From Pseudomonadota bacterium (GTDB lineage Bacteria; Pseudomonadota; Alphaproteobacteria; MED-G09), in assembly GCA_036230365.1 (NCBI GenBank), contig JAZAJI010000041.1, positions 1 through 34,077 of the forward strand: DNA of 34,077 nt, written 5' to 3'. Position 1 is the stretch's first letter, and every line of letters starts with the position of its first letter. Positions 17,660-23,739 of the stretch are shown here, one piece after another. The notes below the pieces were generated by a model that was not told the origin of the DNA, did no database searches, and saw only the letters and a list, made by a program, of their open reading frames with translations. The translations under genes and the position numbers were made by a program.

Positions 17660-18880
17660 TTAATTAAAATCCATTGCATTTTTAGGTGTCATTCTAGCTG
17701 CACGAAAACCTGGAGGAAGGCTTACTAAGAAAGAAGTTATAAAGACAATAATCATAGGTTTTAAGAATACATTTAATGAAAATTCTCCCCTCATATGCTG
17801 AAACATTACACCGCCCATATCAATAGGTTCAGAAAGTAAAAGCCCGGTATTGGCAAACCAGTAGATCATAGGAATAACTATAATAAGAGAAATGGAAATG
17901 CTTAAAAAGGTAAGAAAAATAGTTTCAAGATTTATGAGTAGTATTAATTTTGAAGGTCTACAACCTATTGCCCGAATTACACCAAATTCCTTGGTTCTTT
18001 CAAGCACTGACATTAAAATAGTATTTAATACCCCCACAAAAACAAGAAAGACAATTAATATAAGGGTATAATTATTTCCTTTCCTATCTGCCTGCATTGT
18101 TTGATAAAAAGTAGTCTCAATTCTCTGCCAAGGTGCAACATCTAAATTAGAAAGTGTTTCCTGTAGTTCGGCCGCAATTTCTAAATTTCTCTTTGGTTTA
18201 TTTACTAGCAGAGCATATTGATGAACTTCATCGGACAAGGATAAAAAACTTTGCGATGCAACTAAAGGTAAGTAAACGGTCATTTTATCGAAAGAATTTT
18301 CATTTCCAACAATTGAACTTACGATAAAAATATCGTTTGCAATTGAACCTTCTGCTCCTTGGCCAATTAAAATTAGTTCATCACCAATATTAATTTTTAA
18401 TGACTCAGCAATAGAAGAGCCAATCATAGCTTTGTAATAACCATCAGCATTTGGAGTACTATCAAAATAATCGCCAGTAAAAATTTTCTCTTTAATTCTA
18501 GTTACATCTGCTTCAAGATTTGGATCAATTCCAAGAACCTTTACAGGTGTAGACTTCTCTTTTCCATATGCAAGTGCCATGGATAGAACTCTTGGCGTAA
18601 AACTTATAATTTGGGATTCTTTATAAAATAACTCTTCTAATTCTTTTCTGTTATCTATAGTTAAATATGTCTTTGGTTTTTCTCTATAACTTTTACGATG
18701 TATTTGTATGTGCCCTACACTATCTTTTGTAAATATATCAATAACATTACCGTAACTGCCCTCAACTAGAGACACACTTAAAACAAATACAATATAACCG
18801 CCGCCAATTGATAATCCTGTAAGTATTGTTCTTCTGTATTGACGAAAAAGATTCCTAAAAGCCATACGCAGTATAAGCAT
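17660..18880 (-). CDS. FtsX/LolC-like ABC permease
   Basis: 'AFRNLFRQYRRTILT' and 'SVLERTKEFGVIRAIG'; same topology as its neighbour. Confidence 0.9.
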   Translation of the reverse strand: MLILRMAFRNLFRQYRRTILTGLSIGGGYIVFVLSVSLVEGSYGNVIDIFTKDSVGHIQIHRKSYREKPKTYLTIDNRKELEELFYKESQIISFTPRVLSMALAYGKEKSTPVKVLGIDPNLEADVTRIKEKIFTGDYFDSTPNADGYYKAMIGSSIAESLKINIGDELILIGQGAEGSIANDIFIVSSIVGNENSFDKMTVYLPLVASQSFLSLSDEVHQYALLVNKPKRNLEIAAELQETLSNLDVAPWQRIETTFYQTMQADRKGNNYTLILIVFLVFVGVLNTILMSVLERTKEFGVIRAIGCRPSKLILLINLETIFLTFLSISISLIIVIPMIYWFANTGLLLSEPIDMGGVMFQHMRGEFSLNVFLKPMIIVFITSFLVSLPPGFRAARMTPKNAMDFN

Positions 18881-19626
18881 TAAAATCTCCTTTTAAGATA
18901 TCTAAGAGTAAACATATCCTCAGAAATATCATCAGGATCAAACGATACTGAATCGTAAATTATTATAGTTTTATGACCAACTTTATTTAAAGGAACCATA
19001 ACAAGTTTTGATGGTAATAATTTTCCGTCAAAAATTTTAGATTCTATGAAATCCAACTGACGAATAGCAAGACCTTTTTCATCATAAAATATCTGTTTTG
19101 TAGGTAATAATGGGTTCTTCAATATATGATATTGAATTTTGCCCCAAACAGTAACAGTTGAAACCCTAGGAATTAGATTTATTATGTACTTATCATCTTT
19201 CTCTGATAATGAAAGATCATATTCTTCTGAAAGATTAGTTTGTTTTACAAGATCATCATTCGTAAAATCACTTCCCATCCAAGAACTCATCATCATGGAA
19301 GGCGGAACCTTAATAACACGATCAATTTTCGGAAGAAAGTTCCACATTTCTTTAAATCGCATCAAGGTTGCAATACCTTTGTCTTTTTTTGGTGATAAAA
19401 TTCTAAAATTTGCAAGATCATCACCTAGGGTTATACCTTCTAAAGAGAGTGATCTTTCATAGTCTTCTGTTTGTATTATCATTGTCATCTTTACCCTACT
19501 TGAATTTCCTTGGTAAAGCTTTTCAACTTCATCAATAATAGATTGCGCTGATTGAGATAATAAATTTATAGGCAATAAAATACTTAGACTTAATATTGTG
19601 TATAATAATTTTAAATCTAATGTCAT
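18880..19626 (-). CDS. LolA-like outer-membrane lipoprotein-sorting protein
   Basis: Signal peptide and 'SPKKDKG...MWNFLPKIDRVIKVPPSMMMSSWMGSDFTNDD' motif; TAATG coupling to the permease. Confidence 0.88.
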   Translation of the reverse strand: MTLDLKLLYTILSLSILLPINLLSQSAQSIIDEVEKLYQGNSSRVKMTMIIQTEDYERSLSLEGITLGDDLANFRILSPKKDKGIATLMRFKEMWNFLPKIDRVIKVPPSMMMSSWMGSDFTNDDLVKQTNLSEEYDLSLSEKDDKYIINLIPRVSTVTVWGKIQYHILKNPLLPTKQIFYDEKGLAIRQLDFIESKIFDGKLLPSKLVMVPLNKVGHKTIIIYDSVSFDPDDISEDMFTLRYLKRRF

Positions 19627-19750
19627 TTCTTTTCTTATTGCTAAGCTATATTAATATAACTTAATTCATTTCTTTTAATAATAATTTTTATTTATCTTAC
19701 AAAATATGCTCTAAATTATATCTATAAAAGTAAATACTTTGGGGAAGGTT

Positions 19751-20323
19751 ATGACAAAATTGAAAATTGATCCTCACGCTAGTTGGAAGCCGTTGAGGGA
19801 ACACGCAGAAACTTTATCAAATACAAGACAAAAACAACTTGTTAATGAAGTTGCTAATCATATGGAGGCAGAAATTAAAGGTCAGTTAGAACCATTAATG
19901 GCAACACTTACTGCTGAACCAGTTTACCATTTTTGGCGAGTAAGCGATGTAAATATGGTCCTTAATGGTTATGAAGAAGTATCAAATTTTTATAGCAATA
20001 TGTTTTTAACAGGTGGCGAACAATTTGAAGTGGTGGTTGAAAAAATAATTGCCGATGATCAAGGCGTTATAACAGAAGGACAGGTAAAACAGGTTTATTC
20101 TAAAGAAGCATTAAAAACGATGGGATTAACTTCTGAAAATTTTTCTGAATTAGAAGAACATGATTTATGGCTAACTAATACACAACTTATAACAGTTTGG
20201 CCTGCAGATTCAGATGCAAAATTAGTTGGTGAAGATATCTATTTTGGCGAAGACCCCATGAAAACCCTTACACCAATTAAAAGAGAAGAAATTCCAGATT
20301 ATCATAAATTAGCTAGCCCCTAG
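19751..20323 (+). CDS. Hypothetical protein, probable SnoaL/NTF2-like fold
   Basis: 'HMEAE...LMATL...PVYHF...GYEEVSNFY' and C-terminal 'KLVGEDIYF' patterns. ATG 19751 follows GGGGAAGG; the ORF track starts at TTG 19739. Confidence 0.65.
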   Translation: MTKLKIDPHASWKPLREHAETLSNTRQKQLVNEVANHMEAEIKGQLEPLMATLTAEPVYHFWRVSDVNMVLNGYEEVSNFYSNMFLTGGEQFEVVVEKIIADDQGVITEGQVKQVYSKEALKTMGLTSENFSELEEHDLWLTNTQLITVWPADSDAKLVGEDIYFGEDPMKTLTPIKREEIPDYHKLASP

Positions 20324-20372: not shown

Positions 20373-22664
20373 CTAAAATCTATAATTTAACCTCACACCA
20401 AAATTTCTTCCTGGTAAAGGAACTTCATTTTTTACAAAAGAAGAATGATTTCTTGCAACTTCATCAAGAAGATTTTTACCAAATAAGGATAAACTCACTT
20501 TATTTTGATTGTTAAGCTCAAAAGTCTTCCTTAAAGAAAAATCAAGCATTTCATAGGCTTCAGTCATTGTTTCACCTTCGCTAATATCATTTTGCTTTTC
20601 AACATCTTTATAAGTAAGTCTTGCTTCAAAATTTTCTTCTGAATAAGAAACAGTTAAGATATTTCTCGCAGGTACAATTCTTGGAATATTATTTCCGTTT
20701 TTAAATTCTCCTGTAACTGAGTCTCTACCTAAAGATAAAGTAAGATTTCCTCTATCAAAGGCAAAAGCTTGACTTATTTCAAACTCATAACCTTCAAGTT
20801 CGGCATCTTTTTGTAGATAATTTGCAAGGATAAGACCTCCATGATCCTCATGTTCTTCTTCATGTTCCTCATGCTCTTCTTCAGTTTCATCTTTTAGATA
20901 GATATAATTATCTACTTCATTAGTGAAGATATTTGCCCTAAAAGAGAAATTATTATTTCGATAAAAGACATTCAAATCAATATTGTTAGCAGTTTCAGAT
21001 TTAAGGTTTGTATTGCCAACCTCAAATCTACCTGTAGCAAGATGTGCGCCATTCATAAACAATTCTACTGCTGAAGGAGCCCTTTCAACTCTTGCAAGTC
21101 CAAGACTGATAGTTAAATTATCATTGATTTCTCTTGAAAAATTTAATGCAAAACTTGTTTTACTAAAATCTTTATTAAAGTAATCAATTTCCTCTTCATG
21201 TTCATCTTCATCGTGATGCTCATCTTCGTCGTGATGTTCATCTTCGTCGTGATGCCCTTCTTCATGATGAACAACTGACCCCTTTCGAGAAAAGTCATCG
21301 TATCTAATACCAAGATCAATATCAAATAAGCCAAATTCCTTACATATATAGTAACCTATAGACAGCTCTTCATTATCTGTTGGCCTCATAAATGCTTCAG
21401 CACCAAGAATGGAAATTTCTTCTTCAACATAGTGTATAGATAATTTTTGCTCTAAAACATCATTTGAAAAATCAAAAATTGCTCCATATTCTTTAGATTC
21501 ATTTTCAAAATTTGTAGGACCTTCTGCATGACCATGCTCATCATGTTCGTCTTCGTCATGATGTTCTTCTTCATCGTGGTGCCCTTCTTCTTCAGCATGC
21601 TGTTCAGTAAGAGAGTATTCAGAAGATCTGATAAAATAATTAATCTTTTTTACCCAAGAATTATTTACTATATACGCACCTTCAATATCAAAAATATCAG
21701 ATTCAGTGTTTGAAAAAATTCTTTCACCTTCATGCTCACCTTCATCATGATGCTCATCTTCGTCGTGATGTTCTTTTACTCCATGATCTTCATGACCTTC
21801 GTCATGAAAAGGTATGCCGTAAAGGCTTTCAGAGTTTTTATAAGAAATACCAAAATATCCCCATTCTCCGGCTTTTGATATACCAAATCTTTTCGAAGTT
21901 GACTCAAAATCAGAATTTGGAAGATAGCCAAGATTCTCTTCGTGTTCATCTTCATCATGATGAACTTCTTCTTCATGGTGCTCAGCTTCGTCATGATGCT
22001 CATCCTCTTCGTGATGCTCTTCTTCAGAATGTATTACTGCACCATTGGGGATATCAAAATTATCAAATTGAGAGTCTTTAAAAGCTAAGCTTAAGTTAAA
22101 ACCGCCTATATTATTTTGATATGAAAAGCTACCAGTCTCACCATCATTAACGGATTGAGATTCTAAACCGATGTTTAATTTCGTTTCTTTAATATCTTCC
22201 CGGGCAATTGTATTATCAATAATATTGATAATTCCACCAATAGTTCCATTGGAATAAAGAAGGGATGATGGTCCTCTAACTATTTCAATTTGCTGAATAT
22301 CATGTAAATCAACTTCATTAATATGATCAGCGCCCTTAACAGATACATCTCTTATAGATTTTCCATTATTCATTAACTTTACTCGACTGCCAGTCATTCC
22401 TCGAATGATAGGTTGGCCAACAGCTGAACCAAAGTCTGATGACTGTATTCCTAAGTAATTATCTAATGTCTCACCTATACTTTGTGTTGTTTCCAATACT
22501 AAATCTTCTCCACCTATAACTAGAAGAGGATCATCAAGATCACTTAAATTGAGATCAATATAAGATGAAGTTACTATAATCTCAGAAACATCTGAATCAT
22601 CTGCGTATGTTATGTTTATTGATAAAGCACCAAACACAAAAAGTGCTAATGAAAACTTTTTCAT
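20373..22664 (-). CDS. znuD: TonB-dependent receptor, ZnuD-like zinc uptake, with His/Asp/Glu-rich loops
   Basis: Signal peptide, TonB-box-like EIIVTS, plug 'SDFGSAVGQPIIRG...DVS...DH...IEIVRGPSSLLY', 'ELFMNGAHLATGRFEVG', 'RNHSSFVK...PLPGRNF', C-terminal F and five His-rich inserts. Confidence 0.85.
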   Translation of the reverse strand: MKKFSLALFVFGALSINITYADDSDVSEIIVTSSYIDLNLSDLDDPLLVIGGEDLVLETTQSIGETLDNYLGIQSSDFGSAVGQPIIRGMTGSRVKLMNNGKSIRDVSVKGADHINEVDLHDIQQIEIVRGPSSLLYSNGTIGGIINIIDNTIAREDIKETKLNIGLESQSVNDGETGSFSYQNNIGGFNLSLAFKDSQFDNFDIPNGAVIHSEEEHHEEDEHHDEAEHHEEEVHHDEDEHEENLGYLPNSDFESTSKRFGISKAGEWGYFGISYKNSESLYGIPFHDEGHEDHGVKEHHDEDEHHDEGEHEGERIFSNTESDIFDIEGAYIVNNSWVKKINYFIRSSEYSLTEQHAEEEGHHDEEEHHDEDEHDEHGHAEGPTNFENESKEYGAIFDFSNDVLEQKLSIHYVEEEISILGAEAFMRPTDNEELSIGYYICKEFGLFDIDLGIRYDDFSRKGSVVHHEEGHHDEDEHHDEDEHHDEDEHEEEIDYFNKDFSKTSFALNFSREINDNLTISLGLARVERAPSAVELFMNGAHLATGRFEVGNTNLKSETANNIDLNVFYRNNNFSFRANIFTNEVDNYIYLKDETEEEHEEHEEEHEDHGGLILANYLQKDAELEGYEFEISQAFAFDRGNLTLSLGRDSVTGEFKNGNNIPRIVPARNILTVSYSEENFEARLTYKDVEKQNDISEGETMTEAYEMLDFSLRKTFELNNQNKVSLSLFGKNLLDEVARNHSSFVKNEVPLPGRNFGVRLNYRF
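21196..21270 (-). repeat. Imperfect 18-bp tandem repeat encoding (HHDEDE)n
   Basis: Plus-strand units such as tcatcttcgtcgtgatg recur about 3 times. Similar arrays lie near 21525-21600, 21725-21808 and 21935-22030. Confidence 0.85.
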
Positions 22665-22669
22665 TTTAA

Positions 22670-22715
22670 CTCCTTAAAAAATTTAAAAAATGCTTAGAAT
22701 TTTAAATTTTAGGAG
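22670..22715 (-). promoter_or_regulatory. mRNA hairpin sequestering the receptor Shine-Dalgarno
   Basis: Minus strand: CTCCT-AAAATTTAAAA-ttctaagcatt-TTTTAAATTTT-tta-AGGAG-ttaaa-ATG. The anti-SD CUCCU (22711-22715) lies within the Pro-Pro codons of the upstream ORF and pairs with SD AGGAG (22670-22674). Confidence 0.78.
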
Positions 22716-22965
22716 GTGCTCGTGATGAAAAATTTTTGAAATCAAATGAATCGACATTTTCTGTTATTCCAAATGATAAATTTTTGAAGGGAACTAAATT
22801 TTGTGGACTAACATCAGATGTTATGGGCTTAATTAATTCATTGATACAAAATTCACATTCTACTTCACTTTCTAGATTACCGGAATCGTTGTGCTCTAAT
22901 GGATGTAAAGTTAGATTAACTGCTAAAAATAGCCCAAAAAGAAAGAATGCATACTTATTTTTCAT
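22702..22965 (-). CDS. Leader/arrest peptide, CruR/CutF (DUF2946)-like architecture: signal or TM segment, HxxxH, CxxC, C-terminal RAPP
   Basis: 87 aa MKNKYAFFLFGLFLAVNLTLHPLEH...ECEFC...FSSRAPPKI*. It ends 37 nt upstream of the TonB-dependent receptor start. The ORF track extends it to TTG 22983. Confidence 0.85.
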   Translation of the reverse strand: MKNKYAFFLFGLFLAVNLTLHPLEHNDSGNLESEVECEFCINELIKPITSDVSPQNLVPFKNLSFGITENVDSFDFKNFSSRAPPKI

Positions 22966-23013
22966 AACGCTATAAATAAACAAAATTGAATAAGTATCAA
23001 GAATATTAATGCG

Positions 23014-23739
23014 TTAATTTGTAGTTTTATATTTCCAAAAAGATACAGGCATACTTATTAAATAAATTATCCCCATAACATTTATTGCTATCCATAAGAA
23101 ATTAATCAGTGATAAATAAATAAAGAAAAACAGTAATGAGAAATATAAATAATTCTTTCTGCTTATCCTTATTTTAAACTGCTTTGAAGAAAATGTAGGT
23201 AAATTACTGACCAACAACAGACCAACAATAAAAATATAAACACTTAAAAAAATTTCATTTTTTTCGGCCCAATCAAAACCTAAAAAACTTTGAACAAGAG
23301 GTAAAATTAAAAGGCCGCAACCGGCTGGCGTTGGTACACCGCTAAAAAAATCTGAGTCATCTGAATTGCTATCTTTTTTAAGATTAAAAACAGCAAGTCT
23401 TATACATGAAAAAACAACAAACAGAAGCAATGCCAAGGAACCTATCAATTCATTTTTATTGACAAGACTCATATAAATGAGAATGCATGGAGCTACAGCA
23501 AATGATAGAAAATCTGATAAAGAGTCAAGTTCAGCGCCCAATTCCGATTCACTCTTAAGGATTCTCGAAAAAAAACCATCTAATGCATCACATGCAGATG
23601 CTAAAAGAAGGCAAATGACACTTATTTCAAAATTATAATCTAAGGAAAATCTAATTGAACTTAACCCAAAAGATAAGCCGGCTAGGGTAATAAAATTTGG
23701 TATTTGTGATTTAAAATCTATTCTTCTTATTTTTCTCAT
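23014..23739 (-). CDS. pssA: CDP-diacylglycerol--serine O-phosphatidyltransferase
   Basis: IPNFIT, CDP-alcohol phosphotransferase motif DALDG..SR.......GAELDSLSD, RLAVFN, FSGVPTPAG; follows psd. Confidence 0.93.
   Translation of the reverse strand: MRKIRRIDFKSQIPNFITLAGLSFGLSSIRFSLDYNFEISVICLLLASACDALDGFFSRILKSESELGAELDSLSDFLSFAVAPCILIYMSLVNKNELIGSLALLLFVVFSCIRLAVFNLKKDSNSDDSDFFSGVPTPAGCGLLILPLVQSFLGFDWAEKNEIFLSVYIFIVGLLLVSNLPTFSSKQFKIRISRKNYLYFSLLFFFIYLSLINFLWIAINVMGIIYLISMPVSFWKYKTTN

What the first reader, a model, noticed from the sequence alone, without database searches (positions are those of the whole stretch)
22662..22965. CxxC/RAPP arrest peptide plus SD-occluding hairpin: candidate zinc-sensing ribosome-stalling switch on a ZnuD-like receptor
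Seen: an 87-aa uORF with a signal or TM segment, HPLEH, CEFC (22846-22857) and C-terminal RAPP (22711-22722). The CCT-CCT Pro codons supply CUCCU, which pairs with the receptor SD AGGAG, extended by an 11-bp AAAAUUUAAAA/UUUUAAAUUUU stem. Established: RAPP is a ribosome arrest motif (ApdA/ApdP, related to SecM RAGP), and Bordetella CruR and Rhodobacter CutF are CxxC leader peptides giving copper-dependent control of downstream genes. Inference: a ribosome stalled at RAPP melts the hairpin and allows receptor translation. Metal binding by the exported His/Cys site would release the stall and close the SD. This would be a zinc (or Ni/Co) version of the mechanism, apparently without a Zur box.
Basis: partly seen in the sequence, partly recalled or inferred. 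Interest (0 to 1): 0.86.

Follow-up and report, generated by a model that had tools for sequence, protein, structure and literature searches.

The report
Stalling leader peptide before metal receptor
A tiny gene in front of a marine bacterium's metal-uptake receptor encodes a peptide that probably jams its own ribosome to switch the receptor on, a kind of switch already known for copper that here looks adapted to zinc.

Summary
Window 22702-22965 (-) encodes an 87-aa peptide with an N-terminal hydrophobic export segment, HPLEH, CEFC and a C-terminal SRAPPKI. It lies 37 nt upstream of a 763-aa TonB-dependent receptor whose nearest solved relative is the zinc receptor ZnuD. The Pro codons pair with the receptor's AGGAG.

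It is not chance. About 100 sequence clusters share the design. The Cys-to-RAPP spacer keeps its length (mostly 41 residues) but not its sequence, and the RAPP codons vary synonymously. RAPP occurs nowhere else in this 1.06-Mb assembly. In all 21 distinct homologous junctions scored, the SD is predicted to pair with bases under or at the front edge of a ribosome stalled at RAPP.

The kind is already known. Bordetella CruR (DUF2946) is defined by CXXC plus C-terminal RAPP ahead of a TonB transporter. Rhodobacter CutF melts an SD-shielding stem-loop. RAPP/RGPP leaders before TonB receptors have been surveyed.

What is new is a short, Pfam-silent branch with a different ruler and a conserved His. 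It has zinc-type neighbours (ZnuD-like, ZrgA, Zur-like) in a streamlined marine clade where I found no Zur, ZnuA or ZIP. Stalling, the metal and its polarity are untested.

The parts
22702..22965 (-). Leader ORF (uORF), 87 aa plus stop: MKNKY...SSRAPPKI*
   Evidence: Intact homologs in 14 of 25 genomes of the order. 103 cluster representatives at E<=1e-3.
22906..22953 (-). N-terminal hydrophobic export segment (residues about 5-20) after a Lys-rich start
   Evidence: 79 of 79 family members have a 12-aa window of mean Kyte-Doolittle >=1.8 starting within the first 25 residues, and a K/R in the first 12. This is a hydropathy heuristic only; no signal-peptide predictor was available.
22891..22905 (-). 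HPLEH; His25 is the conserved candidate metal ligand
   Evidence: His25 is invariant in 14 close sequences and >=90% conserved in 79. All 72 members with CxxC have at least 1 His in the 22 residues before CxxC plus the CxxC itself.
22846..22857 (-). CEFC (Cys37, Cys40), candidate metal-binding pair
   Evidence: Invariant in A1. Present in 72 of 79 intact members; 7 lack the second Cys.
22723..22845 (-). 41-residue spacer ('ruler') between CxxC and RAPP; length conserved, sequence not
   Evidence: Gap distribution over the database relatives with both motifs: 40:11, 41:49, 42:5, 43:1, 44:13. Column entropy is about 3.0-3.5 bits across most of the spacer.
22711..22722 (-). RAPP arrest motif (CGA GCA CCT CCT). 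Predicted stall with Pro84 codon (22714-22716) in the P site and Pro85 codon (22711-22713) in the A site
   Evidence: R, P, P invariant and A nearly so. Synonymous codon variation at all four positions. P/A-site assignment is by analogy to the CruR toeprint (PMC12992588, passage).
22711..22715 (-). Anti-SD CUCCU, supplied by the two Pro codons
   Evidence: MFE partner of AGGAG. A CUCC lies within -12..+9 nt of the P-site codon in 21 of 21 junctions.
22700..22710 (-). 5' arm of the A/U stem (Lys-Ile-stop codons plus 2 nt)
22678..22688 (-). 3' arm of the A/U stem
22670..22674 (-). Receptor Shine-Dalgarno AGGAG
   Evidence: Predicted pairing probability of GGAG is 0.96.
20373..22664 (-). ZnuD-like TonB-dependent receptor, 763 aa, with five His/Asp/Glu-rich inserts (residues 210-246, 291-315, 354-382, 464-495, 590-611)
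   Evidence: Pfam Plug and barrel domains. NCBIfam ZnuD 228.4 bits, below the 950 cut-off. PDB ZnuD 4rdr E 1.8e-40, next best 7.6e-14. Inserts located.

Best explanation
The 87-aa ORF is a regulatory leader peptide of the CruR/CutF type.

It is made with an N-terminal export segment, a His...Cys-x-x-Cys metal site, a spacer of fixed length and a C-terminal RAPP. On RAPP the ribosome arrests, with Pro84 in the P site and Pro85 in the A site.

The arrested ribosome sits on the CUCCU anti-SD and on the 5' arm of the A/U stem. The receptor's AGGAG is therefore free, and the ZnuD-like receptor is translated.

When the cognate metal is sufficient (zinc most likely; Co, Cd, Ni or Cu not excluded), it is bound by His25/Cys37/Cys40 of the nascent chain. 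At the moment of arrest these residues lie about 44-59 residues from the peptidyl-transferase centre, so they are just outside the tunnel or in the translocon. Binding releases the arrest, the ribosome terminates 2 codons later, the hairpin re-forms and receptor synthesis falls.

Shown: the anatomy, its conservation, and SD occlusion in silico. Inferred: the arrest itself, the metal, and the direction of the response.
For: (1) Selection acts on the peptide.
- In the 14 close sequences K2, H25, C37, C40, R82, P84, P85 and I87 are invariant.
- Among 79 intact members P84/P85 are invariant, and H25, C37, C40, R82 and A83 are >=90% conserved.
- RAPP codons vary synonymously: R CGA/AGA, A GCA/GCG/GCT, P1 CCT/CCA/CCC/CCG, P2 CCT/CCA.

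(2) The spacer behaves as a ruler. The CxxC-to-R gap is 41 in 49 of 79 database relatives that carry both motifs, with a range of 40-44. Spacer entropy is about 3.0-3.5 bits.

(3) RAPP is unique in the assembly. The one variant clade uses RGPP, the other strong arrest core reported in PMC12992588.

(4) Linkage is constant. All 14 distinct loci in the organism's family precede the same receptor, with a 34-38 nt gap in the 13 of them where measured it.

(5) SD occlusion recurs.
- GGAG pairing probability is 0.91-1.00 in 21 of 21 distinct junctions.
- The MFE partner lies at -9..+20 nt of the P-site codon in 21 of 21.
- Three different pairing registers reach the same result: Pro codons, Ala-Pro codons GCUCC, and in L055/L057 the Tyr-Ser codons.
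- The own-genome background of 218 GGAG-type starts has median 0.68 and 90th percentile 0.96.

(6) There is precedent. CruR needs RAPP and CXXC, and copper relieves its arrest (PMC9426467). CruR arrest was shown in PURE with a toeprint (PMC12992588). [quoted passage not shown]

(7) Several lines lean towards zinc.
- The receptor's best solved relative is ZnuD.
- One His/Asp/Glu insert starts where ZnuD's loop-3 His/Asp/Glu cluster aligns.
- Distant members of the leader family precede a ZnuD-like receptor, a ZrgA zinc-uptake protein (Pfam 147.5 bits) and a Zur-like regulator (57.2 bits, below cut-off).
- No Zur-like paralog was found in 5 near-complete relatives.
Against: - No experiment exists: stalling, metal binding and regulation are all inferred.
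- The hairpin is weak and made mostly of A-U pairs. The 67-nt MFE of -10.9 kcal/mol is matched by 25% of background starts, and the window's SD pairing of 0.96 by 10%.
- A cruder test, shuffling the upstream part and scoring AGGA, gave no signal for the window (52 of 100 shuffles at least as paired). In that model the SD also stayed paired (0.78) when the stalled footprint was masked.
- RNAalifold on the MAFFT alignment predicts no consensus structure.
- The 21 junctions are close kin, not independent.
- Pro-Pro codons in an AT-rich genome give CUCCU almost for free, so anti-SD pairing may be partly a by-product.
- 7 of 79 intact members lack the second Cys, and 2 have QAPP.
- The peptide does not match PF11162. 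Profile-profile comparison aligns only 9 columns at CxxC (probability 7.5-11.8%).
- The receptor scores far below the ZnuD model's cut-off (228 vs 950). His/Asp/Glu loops would also bind Ni, Co, Cu or Cd.
- CutF shows the opposite polarity (metal induces stalling), so the direction cannot be read from sequence.
Confidence: 0.6

Rival explanations
1. Same arrest-peptide sensor, but the sensed metal is copper, as for CruR and CutF, or Co/Ni/Cd rather than zinc.
For: Every characterised CxxC/RAPP leader so far is copper-responsive. CxxC is a classic Cu(I) site. In the sister genus a Cys-rich MerC-family protein is fused into the operon, which suggests a thiophilic metal. The receptor is far below the ZnuD cut-off.
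Against: The receptor is ZnuD-like. The copper-receptor model TIGR01778 scores only 49.6 bits against its 472.45 cut-off. No chain named OprC or CrtA is among the 20 PDB matches at E<=1e-5, though one distant match is named only 'TonB-dependent receptor'. None of the copper genes that accompany cruR (PepSY_TM, PCuAC, Sco, YcnI, CopC) was seen in the loci read. Distant members sit by ZrgA, Zur-like and ZnuD-like genes. The conserved His plus a frequent HxH/HH cluster gives a Cys2His-type site.
Confidence: 0.25
2. The arrest controls the receptor mainly through Rho, as in CruR. The stalled ribosome blocks Rho, and release lets Rho terminate in the untranslated receptor leader or 5' coding region. 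The hairpin would be secondary.
For: This is the demonstrated CruR mechanism. Rho is present in 4 of 5 near-complete relatives. An occluded SD would itself expose untranslated RNA to Rho.
Against: The gap is only 34-38 nt and A/U-rich, against 162 nt at 71.6% G+C for the locus in Bordetella. That leaves no room for a C-rich rut site between the genes. The conserved feature is SD pairing. Rho was not found in the own assembly, which is inconclusive at 68% completeness.
Confidence: 0.15
3. The peptide is a secretion monitor. RAPP arrest is released by the pulling force of Sec-dependent export, not by a metal, and ties receptor synthesis to export capacity.
For: RAPP arrest peptides were first found as monitors of Sec/YidC (PMC7897499, PMC10987492 and PMC10951233; search listing and abstract starts only). 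An export segment is present in 79 of 79 members.
Against: The downstream gene is not a localisation factor. A His and a CxxC at a fixed distance from RAPP are conserved while the rest of the mature part is free to vary, which a pure pulling-force monitor does not need.
Confidence: 0.07
4. It is an ordinary small exported metal-binding protein (a chaperone or receptor partner). RAPP and the hairpin give only translational coupling, with no switch.
For: It is always co-located with the receptor. In the sister genus it lies mid-operon and overlaps the upstream MerC-like gene by ATGA. RNA-library contigs cover it.
Against: A folded protein would conserve sequence. Here only the length of a 41-residue stretch is kept. 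RAPP is otherwise absent from the proteome and is reported as counter-selected. CruR and CutF were not detectable as stable proteins.
Confidence: 0.07

Closest known systems
CruR (Bp2923) of Bordetella pertussis, DUF2946/PF11162, leader of cruR-crtA(bfrG)-bp2921
   Same: Small exported peptide. CXXC at a fixed distance from a C-terminal RAPP that lies 2-3 residues before the stop. Placed directly upstream of a TonB-dependent transporter. The promoter has no Fur-type site. The expected polarity is the same: the metal turns an uptake receptor off.
   Different: 87 aa against 145. The ruler is 41 residues (40-44) against 45-46. A conserved His is present and the semi-conserved 'ICT' Cys is absent. 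There is no PF11162 match. The gap is 37 nt with an SD hairpin, against 162 nt with Rho termination. The receptor is ZnuD-like, not CrtA-type. No PepSY_TM gene follows: the next gene downstream lies on the opposite strand.
CutF of Rhodobacter capsulatus (cutFOG)
   Same: Exported DUF2946-type leader whose arrest melts a stem-loop shielding the SD of the next gene. The anti-SD lies at or after the leader's 3' end.
   Different: CutF has CxxxC and a proline-rich tail rather than RAPP two residues from the end. It controls a multicopper oxidase (detoxification), and copper induces the stall. For an uptake receptor the opposite polarity is expected.
RAPP/RGPP arrest peptides (ApdA, ApdP; SecM RAGP) and the census of RAPP/RGPP small ORFs (EMBO J 2025, PMC12992588)
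   Same: R-A/G-P-P near the C-terminus of a small secreted protein, with a co-directional downstream gene. 'TonB-dependent receptor' is one of the enriched downstream classes in that census. An RGPP variant clade also exists here.
   Different: ApdA, ApdP and SecM monitor protein export. The census names no zinc link, and the words 'zinc', 'Shine-Dalgarno' and 'stem-loop' occur 0 times in its main text. Its supplementary tables could not be read and may list this family.
ZnuD, the zinc TonB-dependent receptor of Neisseria meningitidis (PDB 4rdr)
   Same: Best solved relative (E 1.8e-40). Plug and barrel align. A His/Asp/Glu-rich cluster lies where ZnuD's zinc-sensing loop 3 aligns.
   Different: Far below the NCBIfam ZnuD cut-off (228 vs 950 bits). 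It has five long HHDEDEHH-type inserts instead of one loop. As I recall, ZnuD is Zur-regulated; here no Zur was found.

Membership tests
DUF2946 / CruR family (PF11162) | Match to the Pfam HMM at or above the gathering score (23.7 bits) | tested here: not met
   The window peptide has no hit at E<=1. Of 6 homologs tested, 0 hit at E<=10. 4 of 79 members hit at E<=1, best 0.036, all sub-threshold, although it is the family hit by most members. PF11162 was not found in G000 or G012 by six-frame search.
DUF2946 / CruR family (PF11162) | Homology detectable by profile-profile comparison or through intermediates | tested here: inconclusive
   hhalign of A1/A3 against 17 canonical DUF2946 aligns 9 columns at CxxC only, probability 7.5% and 11.8%. 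Among 10 distant proteins found with the A3 profile, 1 passes the Pfam cut-off (L068, 24.3 bits), 1 is close (L062, 20.5 bits) and 2 are weak. Their gaps run 41-46, which bridges the two rulers.
DUF2946 / CruR family (PF11162) | Conserved CXXC motif | tested here: met
   CEFC at residues 37-40. Invariant in 14 sequences and present in 72 of 79.
DUF2946 / CruR family (PF11162) | C-terminal RAPP about 3 residues before the stop | tested here: met
   RAPP at 82-85 of 87. The tail is 2 residues in 58 of 79, range 1-6.
DUF2946 / CruR family (PF11162) | CXXC-to-RAPP spacing conserved to within 1-2 residues of 45 (paper) | tested here: not met
   41 here, and 40-44 in the family. My sample of 17 canonical members gave 46 in 12, 45 in 2, and one each of 44, 47 and 52. 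The spacing is conserved, but at a different value.
DUF2946 / CruR family (PF11162) | Export signal (signal peptide or N-in/C-out TM segment) | tested here: met
   Hydropathy heuristic: 79 of 79. No dedicated predictor was run. In the window peptide no canonical small -1/-3 cleavage site was seen by eye.
DUF2946 / CruR family (PF11162) | Heads an operon with a TonB-dependent transporter or other metal gene | tested here: met
   All 14 distinct loci of the family precede the receptor. In the sister genus it is second, after a MerC-like gene.
DUF2946 / CruR family (PF11162) | Metal-dependent relief of arrest | not testable with these tools
   Needs reporter or in vitro translation assays.
RAPP-type ribosome arrest peptides | R-A/G-P-P core near the C-terminus of a small (<300 aa) secreted or TM protein with a co-directional downstream gene | tested here: met
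RAPP-type ribosome arrest peptides | Arrest with the two Pro codons in the P and A sites | not testable with these tools
   Shown for CruR by toeprint (PMC12992588). Here it is by analogy only.
CutF-type SD-shielding stem-loop | Stem-loop between leader and target that pairs the target's SD, overlapped by the stalled ribosome | tested here: met
   in silico only. The signal is moderate against background, and RNAalifold found no consensus.
CutF-type SD-shielding stem-loop | CxxxC motif and a downstream multicopper oxidase | tested here: not met
   CxxC here, and the target is a TonB-dependent receptor.
ZnuD (NCBIfam NF038289) | Score at or above the curated cut-off (950 bits) | tested here: not met
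   228.4 bits in 2 stretches. It is ZnuD-like, not a ZnuD equivalog.
ZnuD (NCBIfam NF038289) | His/Asp/Glu-rich extracellular loop 3 | tested here: inconclusive
   The insert at 291-315 begins where ZnuD 252-261 (AHSHEYDD) aligns. The paper places loop 3 at ZnuD 233-309. The numbering offset between the paper and the PDB chain was not checked, and no structure was predicted.

The most novel reading that the evidence does not exclude
This is the first zinc-responsive nascent-peptide sensor. A cis-acting Cys2His leader replaces the Zur repressor in streamlined marine PS1/OCS116-type alphaproteobacteria, which also seem to lack ZnuABC and ZIP. It reads zinc at the translocon or tunnel exit and sets translation of a His-rich 'fishing-net' receptor. 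A wider, Pfam-invisible family does the same job upstream of ZrgA, Zur-like and porin-like genes in other Pseudomonadota.
Probability: 0.35. Interest if true: 0.75.

Novelty: new variant of a known kind. Interest (0 to 1): 0.6.

Why it matters
Metal-sensing arrest peptides are a recent discovery, and only copper examples (CruR, CutF) have been tested.

If this branch senses zinc, the mechanism would extend to a second essential metal. It would also show how very small oceanic genomes regulate trace-metal uptake without a dedicated transcription factor.

The family gives a clean natural experiment on the 'ruler' idea, with 41 residues here against 45-46 between ligand site and arrest site.

It also marks about 100 sequence clusters that current Pfam-based surveys of DUF2946 cannot see.

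The practical value is modest. It improves annotation of marine metagenomes and offers a compact candidate metal-responsive translational switch.

Tried and rejected
- Pfam and NCBIfam on the peptide gave nothing usable. The only hit was TIGR04454 at E 0.013, 16 bits against a cut-off of 35, treated as noise.
- hhalign against canonical DUF2946 aligned only the CxxC.
- RNAalifold on a MAFFT alignment of 14 junctions gave no structure, so I did not build a covariance model or run the count of structure pairs.
- A shuffle test of SD pairing, scoring AGGA with 18 nt of receptor included, did not separate the window from shuffles (52 of 100). Masking the stalled footprint did not free the SD in that model. 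I replaced it with a native background of 218 GGAG starts.
- The promoter scan lists no site directly upstream of the leader's ATG. Its total equals the shuffle expectation (14 against 13.8). The four 'terminator-like' hits on the + strand lie inside the receptor's His-codon repeats.
- A Zur/Fur-box look-alike about 100 nt upstream (inside pssA) is not shared by other loci (by eye), so I dropped it.
- The own assembly is 68% complete, so the absence of ZnuA and Rho there says little. I repeated these searches in 5 relatives of 95-97% completeness.
- RNA runs: short contigs from RNA libraries of two studies cover the leader (22716-22933, 22722-22947, 22681-22879) and parts of the receptor at 90-99% identity. 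None bridges leader and receptor, contigs cannot show a start, and DNA carry-over is not excluded. Parts without cover mean nothing.
- I considered a RiPP or metallophore precursor reading and rejected it, because no modification enzyme genes are nearby.
- No structure prediction, complex prediction or protein-atlas search was run. The peptide is expected to be disordered, and the question did not turn on a fold.
- Supplementary tables of PMC9426467, PMC9973294 and PMC12992588 were not seen. They may list this family or its loci.

Full report
WHAT IS THERE

On the minus strand, an 87-aa ORF (22965..22702) lies 48 nt after a CDP-alcohol phosphatidyltransferase gene (23014-23739; Pfam). It lies 37 nt before a 763-aa TonB-dependent receptor (22664..20373).

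The peptide reads MKNKY, then a hydrophobic stretch, then HPLEH (21-25), CEFC (37-40), 41 residues, RAPP (82-85), K, I and stop.

CUCCU of the two Pro codons (22711-22715) pairs with the receptor's AGGAG (22670-22674). This is extended by an 11-bp A/U stem (22700-22710 with 22678-22688).

IS IT MORE THAN CHANCE?

The hairpin alone is not compelling:
- The 121-nt fold has z = -1.88, and 10 of 200 shuffles fold as well.
- The 67-nt MFE of -10.9 kcal/mol is matched by 25% of 218 native GGAG-type gene starts of the same genome.

The peptide is compelling:
- RAPP or RGPP occurs 0 times in ORFs of 100 aa or more in the 1.06-Mb assembly. This is the only ORF of 40 aa or more, in six frames, that ends in R[AG]PP.
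- A single-sequence search found 5 relatives.
- A profile of 14 sequences found 103 cluster representatives at E<=1e-3 among 1.84 billion proteins, nearly all about 90 aa.
- Of the 106 proteins held, 90 end in [RQ][AG]PP within 6 residues of the C-terminus. The 16 that do not look truncated, chimeric or adapter-contaminated.
- Among 79 intact members the two Pro are invariant. His25, Cys37, Cys40, Arg82 and Ala83 are at least 90% conserved.
- 79 of 79 have a basic N-terminus and a hydrophobic segment.
- The stretch between CxxC and RAPP is nearly free in sequence (about 3.0-3.5 bits per column) but fixed in length. Over the database relatives with both motifs the gaps are 41 in 49, 40 in 11, 42 in 5, 43 in 1 and 44 in 13.
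- The RAPP codons vary synonymously at all four positions between loci, so selection acts on the peptide and not only on the RNA.
- One clade in the same genus uses RGPP.

LINKAGE AND THE RNA ELEMENT

Record titles of related contigs name the OCS116 cluster, the PS1 clade and alpha proteobacterium MED-G09, all marine Alphaproteobacteria. In that order, 14 of 25 genomes carry the leader. All 14 distinct loci have the same receptor next, 34-38 nt downstream in the 13 where measured the gap.

With 29 metagenome loci added, 21 distinct junction sequences could be scored:
- In 21 of 21 the predicted pairing probability of the GGAG core is 0.91-1.00. The own-genome background has median 0.68 and 90th percentile 0.96.
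- In 21 of 21 the MFE partner lies between -9 and +20 nt of the first base of the P-site Pro codon.
- From memory, a bacterial ribosome covers about -12 to +16. So the partner, or most of its helix, lies under a ribosome arrested on RAPP.

Three pairing solutions occur:
- CUCCU from Pro-Pro.
- GCUCC from Ala-Pro, in the three cases (L003, L004, L006) where the first Pro codon is not CCU and the SD still pairs this way.
- A third register in L005, L008 and L109, where the Lys-Ile-stop codons and following bases pair with the SD and the start codon.

In L055 the first Pro codon is CCC and the Gly codon is GGA. There the Tyr-Ser codons upstream supply CUCC.

This fits a selected anti-SD, with caveats. 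The sequences are close kin, and about two thirds of possible partners would fall in that window by chance. A first, cruder test was negative, and RNAalifold found no consensus.

COMPARISON WITH WHAT IS KNOWN

I read passages, not whole papers.
- Roy et al. [quoted passage not shown] The genes usually head operons that often contain TonB-dependent transporters. CruR arrest on RAPP allows expression of the copper transporter. Copper sensed through CXXC relieves the arrest and Rho terminates in a 162-nt gap.
- Ozturk et al. 2023 and a 2025 preprint show that CutF arrest melts a stem-loop shielding the cutO SD.
- Fujiwara-group work (PMC12992588) shows that RAPP and RGPP are the strongest and most context-tolerant arrest cores. 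They are avoided in proteomes and enriched at the C-termini of small secreted proteins upstream of, among others, TonB-dependent receptors. CruR arrests in PURE with the two Pro codons in the P and A sites.

The kind of element is therefore known.

IS IT A MEMBER OF DUF2946?

By the HMM, no:
- The window peptide has no hit at E<=1.
- 0 of 6 homologs hit at E<=10.
- 4 of 79 reach E<=1, all sub-threshold, though DUF2946 is the family most often hit.
- Profile-profile comparison with 17 canonical members taken from 151 genomes of the class aligns only the CxxC.

The ruler also differs. It is 41 here, against 46 in 12 of my 17 canonical members.

There are intermediates, however. Searching 400 other genomes of the phylum with the family profile found 12 with a match. 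Their peptides have the same layout with gaps of 41-46. One passes the DUF2946 cut-off (24.3 bits), one is close (20.5) and two are weak, out of 10 scanned.

I read this as a divergent short branch of the same superfamily. Convergence on two tiny motifs cannot be excluded.

WHICH METAL?

Nothing here is decisive. The pointers towards zinc are these:
- The receptor's best solved relative by far is ZnuD (E 1.8e-40, next 7.6e-14). Its best NCBIfam model is ZnuD, although far under the cut-off (228 against 950). The copper-receptor model scores 49.6 bits.
- The receptor has five His/Asp/Glu-rich inserts and 44 His in total. One insert starts where ZnuD's His/Asp/Glu-rich loop 3 aligns.
- The distant leaders precede a ZnuD-like receptor (164.8 bits), a ZrgA zinc-uptake protein (Pfam 147.5 bits), a Zur-like regulator (57.2 bits, sub-cutoff), porin-like barrels and two other TonB receptors. 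None of the ten downstream proteins scanned matched a copper-handling family.
- Five relatives of 95-97% completeness have a Fur-like gene (5 of 5), an Irr-like gene (4 of 5) and no Zur-like paralog. They show no ZnuA (0 of 5) and no ZIP (0 of 5).
- The own assembly has one Fur-like gene.
- In the sister genus a MerC-family membrane protein with a Cys/His tail overlaps the leader's start by ATGA. This gives a possible outer-plus-inner-membrane uptake pair.

Against zinc: every tested relative senses copper. CxxC and MerC-type cysteines suit soft metals. His/acidic loops bind several divalent ions.

VERDICT

- Observation: confirmed.
- Interpretation: supported in its anatomy and by conservation; unproven in stalling, metal and polarity.

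I rate it a new variant of a known kind. It is a Pfam-invisible short branch with its own ruler and a His ligand, an SD-hairpin read-out on an uptake receptor, and a zinc-type context in a streamlined marine clade without a recognisable Zur.

In the searches I ran I found no paper that links a CruR-type leader to zinc. 'CruR' with 'zinc' gave 3 papers, none making that link. The four-term search had no relevant title or abstract start among the 12 of 116 papers listed. 'DUF2946' gave 16 papers. The Caulobacter Zur-regulon table lists two DUF2946 genes as altered in expression but makes no arrest-peptide claim.

Noticed in passing
L004-L008 (e.g. L006:1068-1478 +), sister genus: A 136-aa MerC-family membrane protein (PF03203, 82.1 bits) lies directly upstream. 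It has a CLIHC motif in its first helix and a C-terminal C-x-H-L-x-C-D-C-H tail. Its stop overlaps the leader's ATG (ATGA), giving a merC-like / leader / receptor operon. In the window's own genome the two MerC-like genes lie elsewhere (contigs C14 and C43).
   Followed up: partly
window 20832-22037 (-), receptor residues 210-246, 291-315, 354-382, 464-495, 590-611: Five long HHDEDEHH-type His/Asp/Glu inserts, with 44 His in 763 aa. This is far more than the single His-rich loop of ZnuD. The repeated His/Asp/Glu codons also create spurious ORFs and 'terminator-like' hits on the opposite strand.
   Followed up: partly
genomes G001, G006, G009, G012, G014 (95-97% complete relatives): No Zur-like Fur paralog was found, only Fur-like and Irr-like ones. 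No ZnuA-family binding protein and no ZIP transporter were found either. How this clade imports and regulates zinc across the inner membrane is open.
   Followed up: partly
window 22966-23013 (-); L010, L053-L057 upstream of the leader ATG: No Shine-Dalgarno precedes the leader's ATG. In the RGPP clade TTGACT, 17 nt, TACTTA/TATTTA sits 6-7 nt before the ATG. The window has TTGATA, 16 nt, TATTTA, then 7 nt. This geometry would give a leaderless or nearly leaderless mRNA. The consensus scanner does not call these sites, and no read-level RNA data were available.
   Followed up: no
L059-L071 (other families of the phylum): Distant leaders of the same layout precede a ZrgA gene (L067), a Zur-like gene (L066) and porin-like outer-membrane barrels (L062, L064, L068; weak Pfam porin hits). 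Two downstream proteins of about 410-450 aa have no family (L061, L065). This suggests a wider set of arrest-peptide-controlled metal genes.
   Followed up: partly
L010, L053-L057 (same genus as the window): One clade has RGPP(Q/A)I instead of RAPPKI and a much more His-rich pre-Cys region (LLHDHHEHHDH...). It lies downstream of a DsbA-like gene.
   Followed up: no
14 junctions of alignment A4 (receptor start codons): The receptor starts with TTG in 10 of 14 loci and with ATG in 4 of 14, the window included. Only 218 GGAG-type starts were found in the whole assembly, so a strong AGGAG at this gene is the minority case.
   Followed up: no
database proteins P0047, P0063, P0078, P0089: Some database 'relatives' are artefacts. 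Two join the leader's N-terminus to the receptor's C-terminal residues. Two end in what look like translated sequencing-adapter sequence.
   Followed up: no
window 18880-19626 (-) and 19739-20323 (+): A LolA-like lipoprotein-sorting protein gene (PF17131, 136.7 bits) and a weak SnoaL-like gene lie downstream of the receptor. The latter is on the opposite strand, so the leader-receptor pair is a two-gene unit here.
   Followed up: no
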